From a candidate division CPR3 bacterium GWF2_35_18 (lineage in GTDB: Bacteria; Patescibacteriota; CPR3; GWF2-35-18), in the NCBI GenBank assembly GCA_001771135.1, contig MESW01000008.1, forward strand, positions 87,630 to 151,629: a DNA stretch of 64,000 nucleotides. The letters are read 5' to 3'. The notes below the pieces were generated by a model that did not search any database, was not told the origin of the DNA, and was given only the letters and a program-made list of their open reading frames with translations. Every line of letters begins with the position of its first letter. Position 1 is the stretch's first letter. The translations under genes and the position numbers were made by a program. Positions 29,018 to 41,517 of this stretch are shown here, piece after piece.

Positions 29018-30058
29018 TTAAAATTGTTTTAAAAATCTTAAATCTCCGGCATGAAAGTGTCGGATATCTTCAATACCGTATTTGAGCATGACGAGTCTAT
29101 CTAAACCCATTCCCCAGGCAAATCCGGAATATTTTTTTGGATCTAACCCAGCCATTTCGATTACTTTTGGATGTGTGAGTCCGCAGGGAATTAGCTCTAA
29201 CCATCCAGAATGTCCACAGGTCGAGCAAGGAATTTTATCTTTTTCCCCTTTTCCATCACACATGACACAAGAAACCAAAAATTCCAATCCCGGTTCTACA
29301 AAAGGAAAATATGAAGGTTGAATCTTATAACGTAGCTCTTTCTGGAAATATTCTTGTAAAAATGTCAAAATCGTACCGATTAGATGGCTGAGGTTTATAT
29401 TTTCACCGATATATAATCCCTCAACTTGATAAAAGGTGTGTTCATGATGGGCATCTGTGGCTTCATGTCTAAAACAACGGCCGGGAACAATAACGCCAAA
29501 AGGAGGCGTTTTCTCTTTCATAGCTCTATTTTGCATTGAAGAAGTATGGGTAATCGGAATTAGGTCATTTTCGGTCCAGAATGTATCCCACATGTCACGA
29601 GCAGGATGTTGTGGAGGTAAATTCAGACTCGTAAAGACATGGTAATCATCATCAATTTCATTTGGATTTAAGATCTCAAAACCCATTTTTTGGAATATTT
29701 TTTCTACCTGAAGTCGTACTTGAGTGATTGGATGTAAAGTTCCAATGTTAAATTTTTCTCCTGGGAGAGTAATGTCAAAAAAAGAATTTTCAGAGTTAGT
29801 TATTTGTCCTAAAGTTTTCTCTTTTTTGTCAAAAGCAATCGTAAGGGCGTTTTTAACTTTATTAATTAAAGGTCCAATCTCTCTTTTTTCGGCAATTGAA
29901 AGATCTGGGATATTCTTCATAAGTAAGGTTAATTTACCTTGTTTCCGACCCATATATTCAACCCTTAATGCTTCAAGCGCTTCTCCATTTGTGATTTTTT
30001 CAATTACGCTTATGGCCTGATTGTATATATTATCAATTTCATTTTTCATAAGAGGCAA
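29018..30058 (-). CDS. pheS: Phenylalanyl-tRNA synthetase alpha subunit (with Cys4 insertion)
   Basis: Class II motifs. FAWGMGLDRLVMLKYGIEDIR is motif 3. Insertion CVMCDGKGEKDKIPCSTCGHSG. Confidence 0.9.
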   Translation of the reverse strand: MPLMKNEIDNIYNQAISVIEKITNGEALEALRVEYMGRKQGKLTLLMKNIPDLSIAEKREIGPLINKVKNALTIAFDKKEKTLGQITNSENSFFDITLPGEKFNIGTLHPITQVRLQVEKIFQKMGFEILNPNEIDDDYHVFTSLNLPPQHPARDMWDTFWTENDLIPITHTSSMQNRAMKEKTPPFGVIVPGRCFRHEATDAHHEHTFYQVEGLYIGENINLSHLIGTILTFLQEYFQKELRYKIQPSYFPFVEPGLEFLVSCVMCDGKGEKDKIPCSTCGHSGWLELIPCGLTHPKVIEMAGLDPKKYSGFAWGMGLDRLVMLKYGIEDIRHFHAGDLRFLKQF

Positions 30059-30063
30059 AAAGT

Positions 30064-30282
30064 TTAAAATATTAAAGTCGCAAGCGGGAAAATAATTGCC
30101 TGCAGAACTAAGGCAGATACAAATACAGCAAGATATGTTTTAAGATATTTTTCTTTAAATATTTTTTGGAAGACTTCGATAACATCGGGAGTCCGGGAAA
30201 ACTCGAGCAACGAAAATAGAACCATAAAAACAAGTGTAATTATCGTAGCATTTTTAAGAATCAGTTTTAGTGTATCTAACAT
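30064..30282 (-). CDS. Small hydrophobic protein (72 aa) between rplT and pheS
   Basis: Two predicted TM helices. Occupies the position of the pheM leader in E. coli. Coding status uncertain. Confidence 0.3.
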   Translation of the reverse strand: MLDTLKLILKNATIITLVFMVLFSLLEFSRTPDVIEVFQKIFKEKYLKTYLAVFVSALVLQAIIFPLATLIF

Positions 30283-30314
30283 TGTATTTTTAGAAATTAC
30301 ACACTACACAGTAT

Positions 30315-30653
30315 TTAACTAATTTTTTTTACAATTTTGTCGAACGTTTTTGGGTCGTTGATCGCAATCTCGGATAATATCTTTCGGTTCAATATAATTT
30401 TATTATCCTTTAGTTTTTTAATAAATAAAGAATAGTTTAATCCTTGTGATTTTACTGCAGCAGATAGTCTGACAATCCAAAGGCTACGGACATTTCTTTT
30501 CCTTTGTTTTCGACCGGCAAAGGCATTTTGCCCAGATTTTAATAGTGTTTCTTTGGCACGACGAACTAGCTGTCTTGATTTTGCAAATCCTTTGACACGT
30601 TTTAATAATTTAGTATGTCTTTTATGCGATGGTACTTTAGTAGTGGCTCTCAC
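30315..30653 (-). CDS. rplT: 50S ribosomal protein L20
   Basis: MRATTKVPSHKRHTKLLKRVKGFAKSRQ... matches bL20. Confidence 0.9.
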   Translation of the reverse strand: MRATTKVPSHKRHTKLLKRVKGFAKSRQLVRRAKETLLKSGQNAFAGRKQRKRNVRSLWIVRLSAAVKSQGLNYSLFIKKLKDNKIILNRKILSEIAINDPKTFDKIVKKIS

Positions 30654-30667
30654 TTTTTAGCTCCTTT

Positions 30668-30886
30668 TCATGAATAAGGTAATAATTTTTTGATTCTTTT
30701 AGTATCAGAGGGTGAGGTTATTTCATCTTTTGATTTACGTCTTCTGGTTCTGGATGATTGTTTTTCTTTAAGATGCGAAGTCGCAACGTGTTGTCTTTTG
30801 AATTTTCCAGATCCGGTGACTTTTACTCTTTTTGATATTATTTTTTTAGTTTTTAGCTTCAATTTTTTTACTTTTGCTTTTGACAT
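30668..30886 (-). CDS. rpmI: 50S ribosomal protein L35
   Basis: MSKAKVKKLKLKTKK...GKFKRQHVATSHL pattern of bL35. Position between infC and rplT. Confidence 0.85.
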   Translation of the reverse strand: MSKAKVKKLKLKTKKIISKRVKVTGSGKFKRQHVATSHLKEKQSSRTRRRKSKDEITSPSDTKRIKKLLPYS

Positions 30887-30904
30887 ATAAATCTTTCTTT
30901 ATAA

Positions 30905-31465
30905 TCAACTTTTAATTGCCGATTTTGCATTGGGACCAAAAATACAAATCATTATTCCACCTTGTTTTAATGGCGGTTTTTCGATTTGAATTTTATCCCC
31001 AAAGAAATCCAGAATTTTTTGCATTAATTCATAACCCAATTCTTTTTTAGTGTTTTCTCTACCACGGAAAAAGAGGCTGACCTTGATTTTATTTCCTTTT
31101 TTCATGAATTCTGTCATACGATTCAGTCTGATCTCTAAATCATGTGGAGAGATATTGAGTTTTAAACGGAATTGCTTTAATTCAACTTCTTTTTGTTTTT
31201 TCTTCGCTTTTTTCTCTTTTTGTTGCAATTCGTATTTGAATTTGTCTAAGGAGATTGCTTTACAAACAGGAGGGTTTGCATTCGCAGAAATTTCGATTAA
31301 ATCAAGCTCTCGAGAATAAGCATAATCTAAAGCTTCTTTTAATGAAACAACTCCGACTTGTTTGCCGTCTTGTCCAATTAATCTGACTTTATCTGCTTTA
31401 ATCTGCAGATTTTTTCGGAAAAATTGCTCTTTTGGTCTAATATTATAGTGAGTTAGTCTATTTAT
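30905..31465 (-). CDS. infC: Translation initiation factor IF-3, apparently initiating at a non-AUG codon (AUA)
   Basis: The track ORF begins at a TTG (31228) inside the protein. In-frame upstream sequence encodes an IF3 N-domain: ...NLQIKADKVRLIGQDGKQVGVVSLKEALDYAYSRELDLIEISANANPPVCKAISLDKFKYE. Between the stop at 31499-31501 and that TTG there is no ATG, GTG or TTG. The ATA at 31463-31465 has a GAAGGAG SD 8 nt upstream. Confidence 0.75.
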   Translation of the reverse strand: MNRLTHYNIRPKEQFFRKNLQIKADKVRLIGQDGKQVGVVSLKEALDYAYSRELDLIEISANANPPVCKAISLDKFKYELQQKEKKAKKKQKEVELKQFRLKLNISPHDLEIRLNRMTEFMKKGNKIKVSLFFRGRENTKKELGYELMQKILDFFGDKIQIEKPPLKQGGIMICIFGPNAKSAIKS

Positions 31466-31586
31466 CTTGTTTTCTCCTTCGCAAAAAACAGAGATATCTT
31501 AGCATAAACCCCTTTAATTCGCAAGGGTAAATTAGGTTAAAGGTTGATATACCAATAACAATATTCAAATTTAAAGGGATTTATGC

Positions 31587-31618
31587 TTCTGGAGGGTTAA
31601 GAAATGACCCTCCAGAAG
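31587..31618 (-). terminator. Stem-loop downstream of thrS and upstream of infC (putative terminator/regulatory hairpin)
   Basis: Perfect 11-bp inverted repeat CTTCTGGAGGG/CCCTCCAGAAG with a 10-nt loop. Confidence 0.4.
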
Positions 31619-31635
31619 ATATTTCCAATCAAGAA

Positions 31636-33414
31636 TTATATATTTTTCTTCTCTGAGATCTCTTTTTGGATCTTTTGAATAAATTCTTCAACTTCCAGAT
31701 CATTCATTTTCTCTCCATTACGAAGCCTTAGAGAGATTTTTTTATTCTGTACCTCCCTATCGCCTAAAATCATCATGTATGGTATTTTTTGTGTAACCGC
31801 ATCACGGATTTTGGCTTGCATAGTGTCATCACGGCTATCAATCTCTGATCTAAGCCTGTTTTTCTGTAACTCTTGCGCGATCTCTTGCGCGTATTCTGCG
31901 TGATTAGAAGATATTGGAATGATTTTCACTTGTATTGGAGATAGCCATACTGGAAAGGCTCCAGCATAATGTTCAATCAAAATTCCCAGAGTTCTTTCGA
32001 TAGAACCGGTTAATCCGCGATGTAAGATAACTGGATGCTGCTCTTTCCCATTTTTATCGGTGTAAACAAGTTTTAATCTTTTTCCCATAAATAGGTCAAG
32101 TTGCAAGGTGCTCATTTGCCATTCACGTCCCAAAGAATCTTTAACCATATAATCGATTTTGGGACCGTAAAATGATGCTTCTCCTTGTGCTTTGACATAT
32201 TTTAGCTTGTTATCTTTGATGATCTTCTCGAGGAGTTTTCCGGCCTTTTGCCAAGTTTTGCTGTCGGCAATGTATTTTACCGCATCAGATGGATCTGCTA
32301 GCGATAAACGTACATAATATTCTTTGAGTCCAAAAGCTTCGAACATTTTGGCAACCATTTTGATACAGCGGGCAAACTCCGATTCTATCTGGTCTTCAGT
32401 CATTAAAATATGTGAATCATCAATGGAAAGTGCACGTACTCGCATTAGTCCGGAGAGCTCTCCGCTTTTTTCATATCGATAGCAAGTACCAGGTTCGGCG
32501 ACCCTATAAGGTAATTCACGATAACTTCGAGGGCGGCTTTCAAAGATCATATAGTGATGTGGACAATTCATGGGTTTCAAAACATATTCTTCACCATCAA
32601 TTCCAAAGGGTGCATACATTACGTCTTTGTAATGTTCCCAGTGACCAGTACGTTTATAAATTTCGGAACTGGCTATATGAGGGCAAGTAACATGTTGGAA
32701 GCCGTTTTCAACTTCAAGTTCATACTCATAGTTCAGAATTTCTTTTCGAATAATCGTTCCCTTAGGGGTTAAAAGCGGAAGACCTTTACCGATTGAATCA
32801 CTGATGACAAAAAGATCCAGCTCTTTACCCAATTTTCGGTGATCTCTCTCTTTCGCTTCTTTACGAACATAGAGAAATTGATCGAGCTCTTTTTGTGTGG
32901 GGAAAGCCGTTCCATAAATACGAGTTAACATTTTATTCTTTTCATCACCGTGCCAGTATGCTCCAGCGATAGAAAGCAACTTGAATGGACCGATTTTTCC
33001 GGTTGATTCAACATGTGGACCGGAGCAGAGATCTACCATGGAATTTTTTTGTCCTTCTTTACCTGTCCAGTAAATAGTTATTTTGGAGCCTTTTTTGGCA
33101 ATTTCATCAATCCATTCCTGTTTATATGGATTATCTTCAAAAAGTTTTCGAGCTTCTTTTTCTGAAACCTCCATTTTGGTAATGGGTAGGTCAAGATCAA
33201 TAATCTCCTTCATTCTTTTTTCGATTTTGGGAAAGTCGGATTCGGAAATTTTGTAAGAAGCAGGATCAAAATCATTGTAAAATCCGTCTTCGGTGGCTGG
33301 TCCCATAGCAAGATGGACTTTTGGAAAAAGCTCTTTTACAGCTTGATGCATGATATGTTCTGCCGAATGTCTCATGGCTTGCAGTTCAATTGGATTTTGT
33401 TTTTTTACTGACAT
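31636..33414 (-). CDS. thrS: Threonyl-tRNA synthetase (lacks N-terminal TGS domain)
   Basis: DHRKLGKELDLF...KPMNCPHH...GLMRVRALSIDDSHI are collinear with E. coli ThrRS. Editing-domain RHSAEHIMHQA motif. 592 aa. Confidence 0.9.
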   Translation of the reverse strand: MSVKKQNPIELQAMRHSAEHIMHQAVKELFPKVHLAMGPATEDGFYNDFDPASYKISESDFPKIEKRMKEIIDLDLPITKMEVSEKEARKLFEDNPYKQEWIDEIAKKGSKITIYWTGKEGQKNSMVDLCSGPHVESTGKIGPFKLLSIAGAYWHGDEKNKMLTRIYGTAFPTQKELDQFLYVRKEAKERDHRKLGKELDLFVISDSIGKGLPLLTPKGTIIRKEILNYEYELEVENGFQHVTCPHIASSEIYKRTGHWEHYKDVMYAPFGIDGEEYVLKPMNCPHHYMIFESRPRSYRELPYRVAEPGTCYRYEKSGELSGLMRVRALSIDDSHILMTEDQIESEFARCIKMVAKMFEAFGLKEYYVRLSLADPSDAVKYIADSKTWQKAGKLLEKIIKDNKLKYVKAQGEASFYGPKIDYMVKDSLGREWQMSTLQLDLFMGKRLKLVYTDKNGKEQHPVILHRGLTGSIERTLGILIEHYAGAFPVWLSPIQVKIIPISSNHAEYAQEIAQELQKNRLRSEIDSRDDTMQAKIRDAVTQKIPYMMILGDREVQNKKISLRLRNGEKMNDLEVEEFIQKIQKEISEKKNI

Positions 33415-33587
33415 ATATAACTCCTTTAAAATTTACTTTATGTTTAATTAAAATAACTACAAATATTACCCCCAAAAGGGGTTGTGGCTGTTAAATGATA
33501 TATAGTTTTATTCAGCATTTTAAATTTGATCATTTTTCCTTTAGTATTGCGTCGTTTAGAAGTTCAGCATAAAAGCGTTCTATACGC

Positions 33588-40733: not shown

Positions 40734-41517
40734 AATTTATTAATTTTTCAAGAAATAGTGGCAAATCTTTCGGTCCTTCAATCTGTTCTATAGCCTGATT
40801 TTTCAGTTTAGTATTACCTTTTCCAACCAATACGAAATTTTCTGCAAATTCGGCCATGGAAAGATCGTTATCATCATCACCAAAAACCATGATTTCTTTA
40901 GTTTTAATTTTATAATTACTACAAAGTTTCTGAATTCCAGATTTTTTAGAAATATCCTTATTTACAAAGTTTAAAGTATCATCGTTATAAGTAGCGTTAT
41001 ATTGACCATTTAATTCCAACTTCTTTATGGTTTTAATAAATAGCAGAGATGGTTTATCTTTGGGAAGATCTTCAATAAAGCAATTATTATTTGAGTAAAA
41101 TTTATATTTTAAATAAGGATATTCTTTAACAAGATTCTCTTTTCCCTTTTCAGAAATAGCAATATGCAGTGTATGATCTTTAGGGTGCCAATAACCGTTA
41201 AAAATGATTGATTCTCTATATTTTTTAATGAAATCAGCTGCTTGTTCGACTATTTCCTTTTCTAAAGGGGAAATAAAAAGGGTATTTTTGTTATTATCAA
41301 TCATGCAGCTGCCATCCAGAATAACGTATGGAGCGCTATAAGTTATTTTTGATATTGCGTTAATAGTCGTATCATGTCCGCGTCCAGTGGCGACAGTATA
41401 GAAAATATTTTCTTTTTGTAGTTTGTGTATAGTTTCAATTAGCTTTTTTGATATCGGCTTTCCCTTTTCTTTCAAGGTTCCGTCAATATCAAAAACACAA
41501 AGTTTAATTTTATTCAT
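40726..41517 (-). CDS. HAD-superfamily hydrolase (Cof-like), tandem paralog
   Basis: MNKIKLCVFDIDGTLKE. FGDDDNDLSMAE motif. Confidence 0.75.
   Translation of the reverse strand: MNKIKLCVFDIDGTLKEKGKPISKKLIETIHKLQKENIFYTVATGRGHDTTINAISKITYSAPYVILDGSCMIDNNKNTLFISPLEKEIVEQAADFIKKYRESIIFNGYWHPKDHTLHIAISEKGKENLVKEYPYLKYKFYSNNNCFIEDLPKDKPSLLFIKTIKKLELNGQYNATYNDDTLNFVNKDISKKSGIQKLCSNYKIKTKEIMVFGDDDNDLSMAEFAENFVLVGKGNTKLKNQAIEQIEGPKDLPLFLEKLINYE

What the first reader, a model, noticed from the sequence alone, without database searches (positions are those of the whole stretch)
31439..31501. infC lacks any canonical start codon for its N-domain: AUA (or AUU) initiation
The IF3 N-terminal domain is encoded in frame upstream of the first ATG/GTG/TTG (a TTG at 31228 inside the protein). 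After the in-frame stop at 31499-31501 the only plausible initiator is ATA at 31463-31465, with a GAAGGAG SD at 8-nt spacing. An ATT at 31439-31441 is the alternative. This matches the conserved IF3 autoregulatory use of a non-AUG start, here with the rarer AUA.
Basis: partly seen in the sequence, partly recalled or inferred. Interest (0 to 1): 0.5.

Follow-up and report, generated by a model that had tools for sequence, protein, structure and literature searches.

The report
infC starts at a conserved AUA
The gene for translation initiation factor IF3 in this uncultivated (CPR3) bacterium has no normal start codon and most likely begins at an AUA behind a strong ribosome-binding site; this is a known peculiarity of this gene in other bacteria, so the case is ordinary, but the public annotation probably starts 8 codons too late.

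Summary
On the minus strand, infC sits in a thrS-infC-rpmI-rplT-pheST cluster. After the in-frame TAA (31501-31499) there is no ATG, GTG or TTG until TTG 31228, which lies downstream of the complete IF3 N-domain.

Comparison supports it. Five independent relatives (92% to 61% protein identity) all carry (A)GGAG or GGGAG 6-10 nt upstream of an in-frame ATA at the same position, 25-27 codons before the "VRLI" strand. The alternative ATT 31441-31439 has no Shine-Dalgarno sequence. It is TCT in the closest relative and is absent from the others. GenBank uses this ATT (178 aa), and older records use the TTG (107 aa).

A TTGC-N16-TGnTAAnAT extended -10 promoter lies just upstream in all six sequences and predicts a 24-nt leader here.

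AUA-initiated infC is already documented in Staphylococcus aureus, Flavobacterium johnsoniae and Deinococcus/Thermus. IF3 autoregulation through the weak start codon is inferred, not shown.

Verdict: a real feature, a new member of a known kind, and of low interest beyond a small annotation correction.

The parts
30905..31465 (-). infC coding sequence as proposed here (186 codons plus TGA stop at 30907-30905), starting at ATA
   Evidence: Translation. Pfam IF3_N and IF3_C, and TIGR00168. PDB IF3 matches at E 5e-36. The same start position is found in five relatives.
31463..31465 (-). Proposed initiation codon ATA (AUA)
   Evidence: It is in frame and 8 nt after AGGAG. An in-frame ATA lies at the homologous place in L025, L001, L002, L003 and L014.
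31474..31480 (-). Shine-Dalgarno sequence GAAGGAG
   Evidence: Sequence. AGGAG at 5-8 nt spacing is the usual ribosome-binding site of genes in this window. It is conserved in all relatives at 6-10 nt spacing.
31496..31524 (-). Predicted infC promoter: -35 TTGCGA (31524-31519), 17-nt spacer, extended -10 TGcTAAGAT (31504-31496). The predicted transcription start is near G 31489.
   Evidence: The pattern TTGC-N16-TGnTAAnAT is present upstream of infC in all six sequences. It occurs once in the window against 0.14 expected. The role is inferred from conservation and was not mapped.
31499..31501 (-). In-frame stop TAA that closes the frame upstream; it lies inside the -10 hexamer
31439..31441 (-). 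Alternative start ATT (codon 9), used by GenBank OGB62792.1 (178 aa); judged unlikely
   Evidence: No SD within 20 nt. It is TCT in L025 and absent in L001, L002, L003 and L014. P0001 begins MRPKEQ.
31226..31228 (-). First canonical in-frame start codon (TTG), inside the inter-domain linker; used by older annotation KKP69984.1 (107 aa)
31205..31411 (-). IF3 N-terminal domain (aa 19-87)
   Evidence: PF05198, E 7e-26, model positions 2-70 of 70
30932..31186 (-). IF3 C-terminal domain (aa 94-178)
   Evidence: PF00707, E 5e-23
31586..31618 (-). 12-bp perfect hairpin just after the thrS stop. It is a likely thrS transcript end, although no U-tract follows.
   Evidence: the repeat finder pair I2 and fold. 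L025 has a different GC-rich hairpin followed by TTT at the same place.

Best explanation
This is the gene for initiation factor IF3 of a candidate division CPR3 bacterium. It is transcribed from its own extended -10 promoter in the thrS-infC spacer, which gives a leader of about 24 nt. Translation starts at AUA 31465-31463. The 30S subunit is positioned there by a strong Shine-Dalgarno sequence (GAAGGAG, 8 nt upstream), and initiator tRNA reads AUA with a third-position mismatch. The product is a 186-residue IF3 with a short basic/aromatic N-terminal tail ahead of the N-domain. IF3 itself destabilises initiation complexes on non-canonical start codons, so the AUA most likely makes infC translation fall when IF3 is in excess and rise when it is scarce, as shown for the AUU of E. 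coli infC.

Shown here: the gene identity, the lack of a canonical start, and the conservation of the SD-ATA unit and of the promoter motif.

Inferred: the use of AUA in vivo, the transcription start, and the autoregulation.
For: A full-length IF3 lies in one frame. Six independent sequences all have (A)GGAG or GGGAG 6-10 nt before an in-frame ATA, 25-27 codons upstream of the V of VRLI. They are the window, L025 (92% aa identity), L001, L003 and L014 (63-64%) and L002 (61%).

In L003 and L014 the frame opens only 5 and 3 codons upstream of ATA. No other candidate follows until a codon inside the first beta-strand, so ATA is the only way to include the conserved FF(R/L)KN segment.

Between the window and L025, the 25 nt GAAGGAGAAAACAAGATAAATAGAC are identical. 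Meanwhile about a quarter of downstream codons carry synonymous changes, and the ATT has become TCT.

Across the six sequences, the first 18 codons after ATA contain 0 stops in frame, against 5 and 9 in the other two frames.

Genes in the window commonly use AGGAG at 5-8 nt spacing. 28 of 50 long ORFs have an SD-preceded start, against 6.6% of internal in-frame start codons.

The promoter motif TTGC-N16-TGnTAAnAT is present in all six. It occurs once in the window against 0.14 expected.

Literature: an AUA start of infC was seen by retapamulin ribosome profiling in S. aureus (PMC13009471), proven by mass spectrometry plus mutagenesis in F. johnsoniae (PMC7797042), and proposed for Deinococcus/Thermus (PMC2830850). 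E. coli AUU autoregulation is cited.
Against: There is no direct evidence such as a mapped N-terminus, ribosome profiling or a mapped transcript 5' end.

Codons 4-9 differ at 5 of 6 residues between the window and L025, with no synonymous changes. That stretch therefore evolves as if unconstrained, which is what an untranslated leader would also show.

Protein length does not discriminate. Tails of 16 residues (ATA) or 8 residues (ATT) before the R-x-N motif both fall within the range of solved IF3s.

In E. coli extracts, an AUA mRNA was only weakly repressed by excess IF3 (20-25%, against more than 60% for AUU; PMC5499595). Autoregulation through AUA is therefore less certain than through AUU.

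The generic sigma-70 scan did not report the promoter, which matches only 8 of 12 consensus positions.
Confidence: 0.8

Rival explanations
1. Translation starts at ATT 31441-31439, as in the current GenBank annotation (OGB62792.1, 178 aa, MRPKEQ...). The upstream SD-ATA would then be part of the leader.
For: ATT is the classic infC start codon. The strongly constrained coding sequence begins right after it: from codon 10 onward there are 48 synonymous and 10 non-synonymous codon differences against L025, whereas codons 4-9 show non-synonymous changes only. NCBI chose this codon.
Against: No SD-like motif lies within 20 nt upstream, in a genome that uses AGGAG. The codon is TCT in the 92%-identical L025, and no ATT occurs at that position in L001, L002, L003 or L014. 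This reading leaves unexplained the perfectly conserved SD-N8-ATA block 24 nt upstream and the always-open frame from ATA onward.
Confidence: 0.08
2. Both AUA 31465 and AUU 31441 are used in this strain, giving two IF3 isoforms that differ by 8 N-terminal residues.
For: Both are near-cognate AUH codons in frame. Nothing found here excludes leaky scanning-like use of the second codon.
Against: The ATT has no SD and is not conserved even in the closest relative. Bacterial 30S subunits are placed by the SD, which here sits 32 nt from the ATT.
Confidence: 0.05
3. Translation starts at TTG 31228, or at another site inside the gene, and gives a C-domain-only IF3. This is the older annotation (KKP69984.1, 107 aa). 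The N-domain would then be a relic.
For: TTG 31228 is the first canonical start. The IF3 C-domain alone can sustain E. coli growth (abstract of PMC9723500).
Against: The N-domain matches the Pfam model end to end. It is under purifying selection: across the codons between the ATT and the TTG (10-79), 12 differ synonymously from L025 and 5 non-synonymously. It is conserved in all relatives. No SD lies before the TTG.
Confidence: 0.01
4. The missing start is an assembly or sequencing artefact: an indel hides a canonical start. Alternatively, the upstream ATG at 31505 is the real start, as in the 199-aa call for L025 (P0124).
For: In L025 a T-run one base shorter puts the ATG of the TATGCTAAGAT motif in frame with infC.
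Against: In the window that ATG is out of frame and opens a 15-codon ORF ending at TAG 31460-31458 (sequence). In L001, L002 and L014 the same ATG opens ORFs of 7, 3 and 3 codons, and in L003 one of 32 codons (sequences). It is therefore not a conserved coding start. The ATG lies inside the conserved extended -10 element, upstream of the predicted transcript start. The 178-aa product encoded by this locus (identical apart from its first residue, which is read as Met) is on 4 GenBank contigs, and the 107-aa call from the same frame is on 22 contigs. Six independent assemblies share the arrangement.
Confidence: 0.02

Closest known systems
E. coli infC: AUU start codon and IF3 translational autoregulation (Butler et al. 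1987; Brombach and Pon 1987; Sacerdot et al. 1996; Sussman et al. 1996; cited via PMC5499595 and PMC7797042)
   Same: The same gene lies directly after thrS and before rpmI-rplT. It has a non-canonical AUH start behind a good SD, and no canonical start is available for the N-domain.
   Different: The codon is AUA, not AUU. The promoter lies in the thrS-infC spacer rather than inside thrS (the E. coli arrangement is from my own knowledge). Autoregulation was not tested here, and in E. coli extracts AUA responds less to IF3 than AUU does.
AUA-initiated infC of Staphylococcus aureus (PMC13009471), Flavobacterium johnsoniae (PMC7797042) and Deinococcus/Thermus (PMC2830850)
   Same: infC has an AUA start. 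In S. aureus an extended SD is predicted to direct use of the non-canonical codon, as the strong GAAGGAG would here. In these organisms too, annotation pipelines placed the start wrongly.
   Different: Those cases rest on experiment (ribosome profiling, or mass spectrometry plus mutagenesis) or on a curated alignment. This one rests on comparison only, and it comes from a different, uncultivated lineage (CPR3). F. johnsoniae ribosomes do not use the SD, whereas this organism clearly does.
Firmicute infC-rpmI-rplT operon controlled by the L20 leader (Rfam RF00558)
   Same: The gene order infC-rpmI-rplT is the same, and the neighbouring thrS has a T-box-like leader.
   Different: No L20 leader was detected in the window at E<=1. 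L025 gave only a chance-level match (24 bits, E 0.47, gathering score 58.7). The predicted leader of about 24 nt is too short for such an element.

Membership tests
Bacterial translation initiation factor IF3 (infC; TIGR00168; PF05198 + PF00707) | N-terminal domain, Lys-rich linker and C-terminal domain in one polypeptide | tested here: met
   PF05198 at 90.6 bits (cut-off 26.9). PF00707 at 81.4 bits (cut-off 34.8). TIGR00168 equivalog at 172 bits (cut-off 60). PDB IF3 chains match at E 5e-36 over aa 16-179.
Bacterial translation initiation factor IF3 (infC; TIGR00168; PF05198 + PF00707) | Usual genomic context thrS-infC-rpmI-rplT(-pheST) | tested here: met
   ORFs. The same order is seen in L001, L002 and L025 with Pfam labels.
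infC genes with a non-canonical (AUU/AUC/AUA) initiation codon | No ATG/GTG/TTG in frame between the upstream stop and the N-domain | tested here: met
infC genes with a non-canonical (AUU/AUC/AUA) initiation codon | In-frame AUH codon at functional distance (about 5-10 nt) from a Shine-Dalgarno sequence | tested here: met
   AGGAG, then 8 nt, then ATA. This is the typical spacing for this genome.
infC genes with a non-canonical (AUU/AUC/AUA) initiation codon | The same start codon position is conserved in relatives | tested here: met
   Five of five relatives at 61-92% identity have SD-ATA at the homologous position. A more distant relative (L008, 42%) has ATT there, but its SD is unclear.
infC genes with a non-canonical (AUU/AUC/AUA) initiation codon | Experimentally mapped N-terminus or initiation site | not testable with these tools
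   Needs proteomics, ribosome profiling or toeprinting.
IF3-autoregulated infC (E. coli paradigm) | Expression repressed by IF3 in a manner that depends on the non-canonical start codon | not testable with these tools
   Inferred only. The in-vitro data for AUA in E. coli extracts show a weak effect.
L20-leader-controlled infC operon (RF00558) | Covariance-model match to the L20 leader upstream of infC | tested here: not met
   No match at E<=1 in window 29500-33500, and none at the gathering threshold in the whole window.

The most novel reading that the evidence does not exclude
The AUA start could be part of a lineage-specific control module in the CPR3 clade. All six relatives keep the same arrangement upstream of infC: a TTGC-N16-TGnTAAnAT promoter whose -10 region contains an ATG, usually a G-U-rich transcript start, a strong SD, and AUA. 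In read-through transcripts from the T-box-controlled thrS, that ATG opens a short upstream ORF. In the window and in L003 this ORF ends on or just past the AUA. Translation of the upstream ORF could therefore gate AUA initiation, coupling IF3 synthesis to thrS read-through in addition to IF3 autoregulation.
Probability: 0.04. Interest if true: 0.4.

Novelty: new member of a known kind. Interest (0 to 1): 0.13.

Why it matters
The practical gain is an annotation correction. The three public calls for this protein (98/107 aa from TTG, 178 aa from ATT, 199 aa from a promoter ATG in a relative) are probably all wrong, and the true product is most likely 186 aa starting at AUA. The result also extends the known non-AUG start of infC, and by inference IF3 autoregulation, to a Candidate Phyla Radiation lineage with a reduced genome. 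It gives a clean comparative example that gene callers limited to ATG/GTG/TTG truncate infC systematically. It does not open a new question.

Tried and rejected
It returned only four distant relatives (38-40% identity: Ruminococcaceae, Catabacter, Chitinophagaceae). These use ATG or ATC and give context only.

2. Rfam found no L20 leader or other known RNA between thrS and rplT. A 24-bit L20-leader match in L025 was judged chance, driven by a terminator hairpin.

3. The generic promoter scan found nothing. The conserved promoter scores only 8 of 12 against consensus and was recognised only by comparison.

4. The thrS-infC spacer folds strongly as RNA (z = -6.2). This is due to a 12-bp hairpin after thrS and a 17-nt inverted repeat (31501-31517 / 31571-31587). 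The 5' arm of the repeat is not conserved in L025, and the repeat lies upstream of the predicted transcript start, so it was not taken as part of the start-codon mechanism.

5. A weak hairpin pairs the leader U-run with the A-rich SD-start spacer (-4.8 kcal/mol). It is absent in L014 and different in the others, so it was not taken as functional.

6. The upstream out-of-frame ORF from ATG 31505 was considered as a leader peptide. It was rejected because its length varies (15, 7, 3, 32 and 3 codons) and it lies upstream of the predicted transcript start.

7. ATC 31495 was rejected as a start. It has no SD and lies directly after the -10 box, upstream of the predicted transcript start.

Full report
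OBSERVATION. The minus strand between 33414 and 26885 carries thrS, infC, rpmI, rplT, a 72-aa ORF, pheS and pheT. In the infC frame, the stop TAA at 31501-31499 is followed by GAT ATC TCT GTT TTT TGC GAA GGA GAA AAC AAG ATA AAT AGA CTA ACT CAC TAT AAT ATT AGA CCA AAA. There is no ATG, GTG or TTG until TTG 31228, so the mechanical ORF list shows only a 107-aa fragment.

IDENTITY. Counted from ATA, the product is 186 aa. Pfam IF3_N covers aa 19-87 (model positions 2-70 of 70) and IF3_C covers aa 94-178. The NCBIfam equivalog TIGR00168 scores 172 bits against a cut-off of 60. Solved IF3 structures align from residue 16-17 onward. The N-domain is complete and contiguous with the C-domain, so there is no frameshift. 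The closest database protein is 'translation initiation factor IF-3 [candidate division CPR3 bacterium GWF2_35_18]'. It is identical apart from its first residue, which places the window in that organism or a near-identical one.

WHICH CODON STARTS THE PROTEIN. I collected relatives by exact-protein look-up and by one metagenome scan for the clade motif PPVC-x5-DK[FY]KYE. I then read the DNA upstream of each N-domain. Five independent relatives belong to the same clade: L025 (92% aa identity), L001 (64%), L003 (63%), L014 (63%) and L002 (61%). All five have an in-frame ATA preceded by a Shine-Dalgarno motif:
- window: AGGAG, 8 nt, ATA
- L025: AGGAG, 8 nt, ATA
- L001: AGGAGG, 10 nt, ATA
- L002: AGGAG, 7 nt, ATA
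- L003: GGGAG, 7 nt, ATA
- L014: AGGAG, 6 nt, ATA (the second of two adjacent ATA codons)

The ATA always lies 25-27 codons before the V of the conserved VRLI strand. In L003 and L014 the frame opens only 5 and 3 codons before the ATA. No other candidate follows until a codon inside the first beta-strand, so ATA is the only way to translate the conserved FF(R/L)KN segment.

The alternative ATT of the window (codon 9) has no SD within 20 nt. It is TCT in L025 and has no counterpart in the other four.

The window and L025 differ synonymously at 48 of the 177 codons from codon 10 onward, with 10 non-synonymous differences. Yet the 25 nt GAAGGAGAAAACAAGATAAATAGAC are identical in both. A conserved SD-spacer-ATA block makes sense only if it is the initiation region. 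The first 18 codons after ATA contain no stop in frame in any of the six sequences, against 5 and 9 stops in the other two frames. Weak protein-level features recur in the tail: Arg at position 2-3, an aromatic residue or His soon after, and Pro near position 10 in five of six.

One caveat remains. Codons 4-9 differ at five residues between the window and L025, with no synonymous change. That part of the tail is essentially unconstrained, and on its own this would also fit an untranslated leader.

THE ORGANISM USES SD SEQUENCES. Of 50 long ORFs in the window, 28 have a canonical start preceded by an SD motif at 4-11 nt, most often AGGAG at 5-8 nt (for example thrS, AGGAG-6-ATG). The figure for internal in-frame start codons is 6.6%. 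The infC site is therefore a typical strong ribosome-binding site for this genome, and the SD-less ATT is atypical.

PROMOTER AND LEADER. All six sequences match TTGC-N16-TGnTAAnAT just upstream. In the window this is -35 TTGCGA 31524-31519, a 17-nt spacer, and extended -10 TGcTAAGAT 31504-31496. The pattern occurs once in the window against 0.14 expected. The in-frame stop TAA is part of the -10 hexamer. A start near G 31489 would give a 24-nt leader and would exclude ATC 31495. The generic scan missed the promoter because it matches only 8 of 12 consensus positions. thrS ends in a 12-bp hairpin (31586-31618) and has a T-box-like leader of its own. This fits separate transcription of infC. 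The promoter is inferred from conservation only.

PUBLIC ANNOTATION. Three different products are on record for this locus or its 90% cluster:
- 107 and 98 aa from the TTG (KKP69984.1, KKP85955.1), covering the C-domain only
- 178 aa from the ATT (OGB62792.1 and three others)
- 199 aa for L025, from the ATG inside the TATGCTAAGAT promoter motif

That ATG is in frame in L025 only because its T-run is one base shorter. In the window the same ATG is out of frame and opens a 15-codon ORF. In the other relatives it opens ORFs of 7, 3, 32 and 3 codons, so it is not a conserved coding start.

MECHANISM. Established knowledge: IF3 destabilises 30S initiation complexes on non-canonical start codons, and the AUU of E. 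coli infC makes its translation self-limiting (references 19-22 of PMC5499595; PMC7797042). AUA starts of infC are documented by retapamulin ribosome profiling in S. aureus, where an extended SD is predicted to direct the choice (PMC13009471). They are also documented by mass spectrometry plus mutagenesis in F. johnsoniae (PMC7797042) and by alignment in Deinococcus/Thermus (PMC2830850). I therefore infer that this AUA, helped by a strong SD, is read by initiator tRNA and is subject to IF3 discrimination. This step is not shown here. In E. coli extracts, excess IF3 reduced an AUA mRNA by only 20-25%, against more than 60% for AUU (PMC5499595).

WIDER CONTEXT. Other IF3 genes picked up by the scans use GGAGG-9-ATC (L010, L012, L020), ATC (L016, probably L004), ATT at the homologous position (L008 group, 42% identity, SD unclear), GTG (L022) or ATG (L005-L007, L021). 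Non-canonical starts are common in this gene but not universal. [quoted passage not shown]

VERDICT. I put about 0.8 on the start assignment and less on autoregulation. It is a new instance, in a CPR lineage, of a well-known feature, so interest is low. The useful output is a corrected start 8 codons upstream of the GenBank call.

Noticed in passing
window 22777-22487 (-) and 22375-21185 (-): A T-box leader above Rfam's gathering score (100 bits) has a specifier position that reads UAC (Tyr) by my alignment to the consensus. It precedes a 396-aa gene with no Pfam, NCBIfam or PDB sequence match. A T-box-controlled gene of unknown family may be worth a separate look.
   Followed up: partly
window 33827-33645 (-); L001 206-409: A T-box-like leader lies upstream of thrS (56 bits, E 1e-11, below the gathering score). 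A relative has one before its thrS too (75 bits).
   Followed up: partly
window 30282-30064 (-); L001 3900-4124; L002 1215-1433: A 72-aa hydrophobic ORF lies between rplT and pheS. It is conserved in sequence (57-63% identity) and in position in two relatives, and has no Pfam family.
   Followed up: partly
window 31501-31517 and 31571-31587: A 17-nt inverted repeat (94% complementary, 53 nt apart) has one arm in the spacer and -10 region of the predicted infC promoter (31501-31517). The other arm is not conserved in L025. Its meaning is unknown.
   Followed up: partly
window 31505-31458 (-); L025 1501: The ATG inside the conserved TATGCTAAGAT motif opens a 15-codon out-of-frame ORF that ends 3 nt past the ATA start. 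In L025 a one-base shorter T-run puts it in frame with infC, and a gene caller used it (199 aa).
   Followed up: yes
L003 831-878: The longer infC leader of this relative has an 8-bp hairpin (CGCCACTT/AAGTGGCG) followed by TTTGTTTTT, between the promoter and the SD. It looks like a terminator, so an attenuator is possible. The window has nothing similar.
   Followed up: no
L010, L012, L020 (metagenome contigs): A separate IF3 clade has a conserved GGAGG-9-ATC start and no canonical start codon. The L008 group (7 identical contigs) has ATT at the position homologous to the CPR3 ATA, but without a clear SD.
   Followed up: partly
window 41547-41537 (-) and 52562-52552 (-): There are two further matches to the extended -10-like motif TATGnTAAnAT. 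The first lies 20 nt upstream of an ATG at 41517. This may be the common promoter form of this organism.
   Followed up: no
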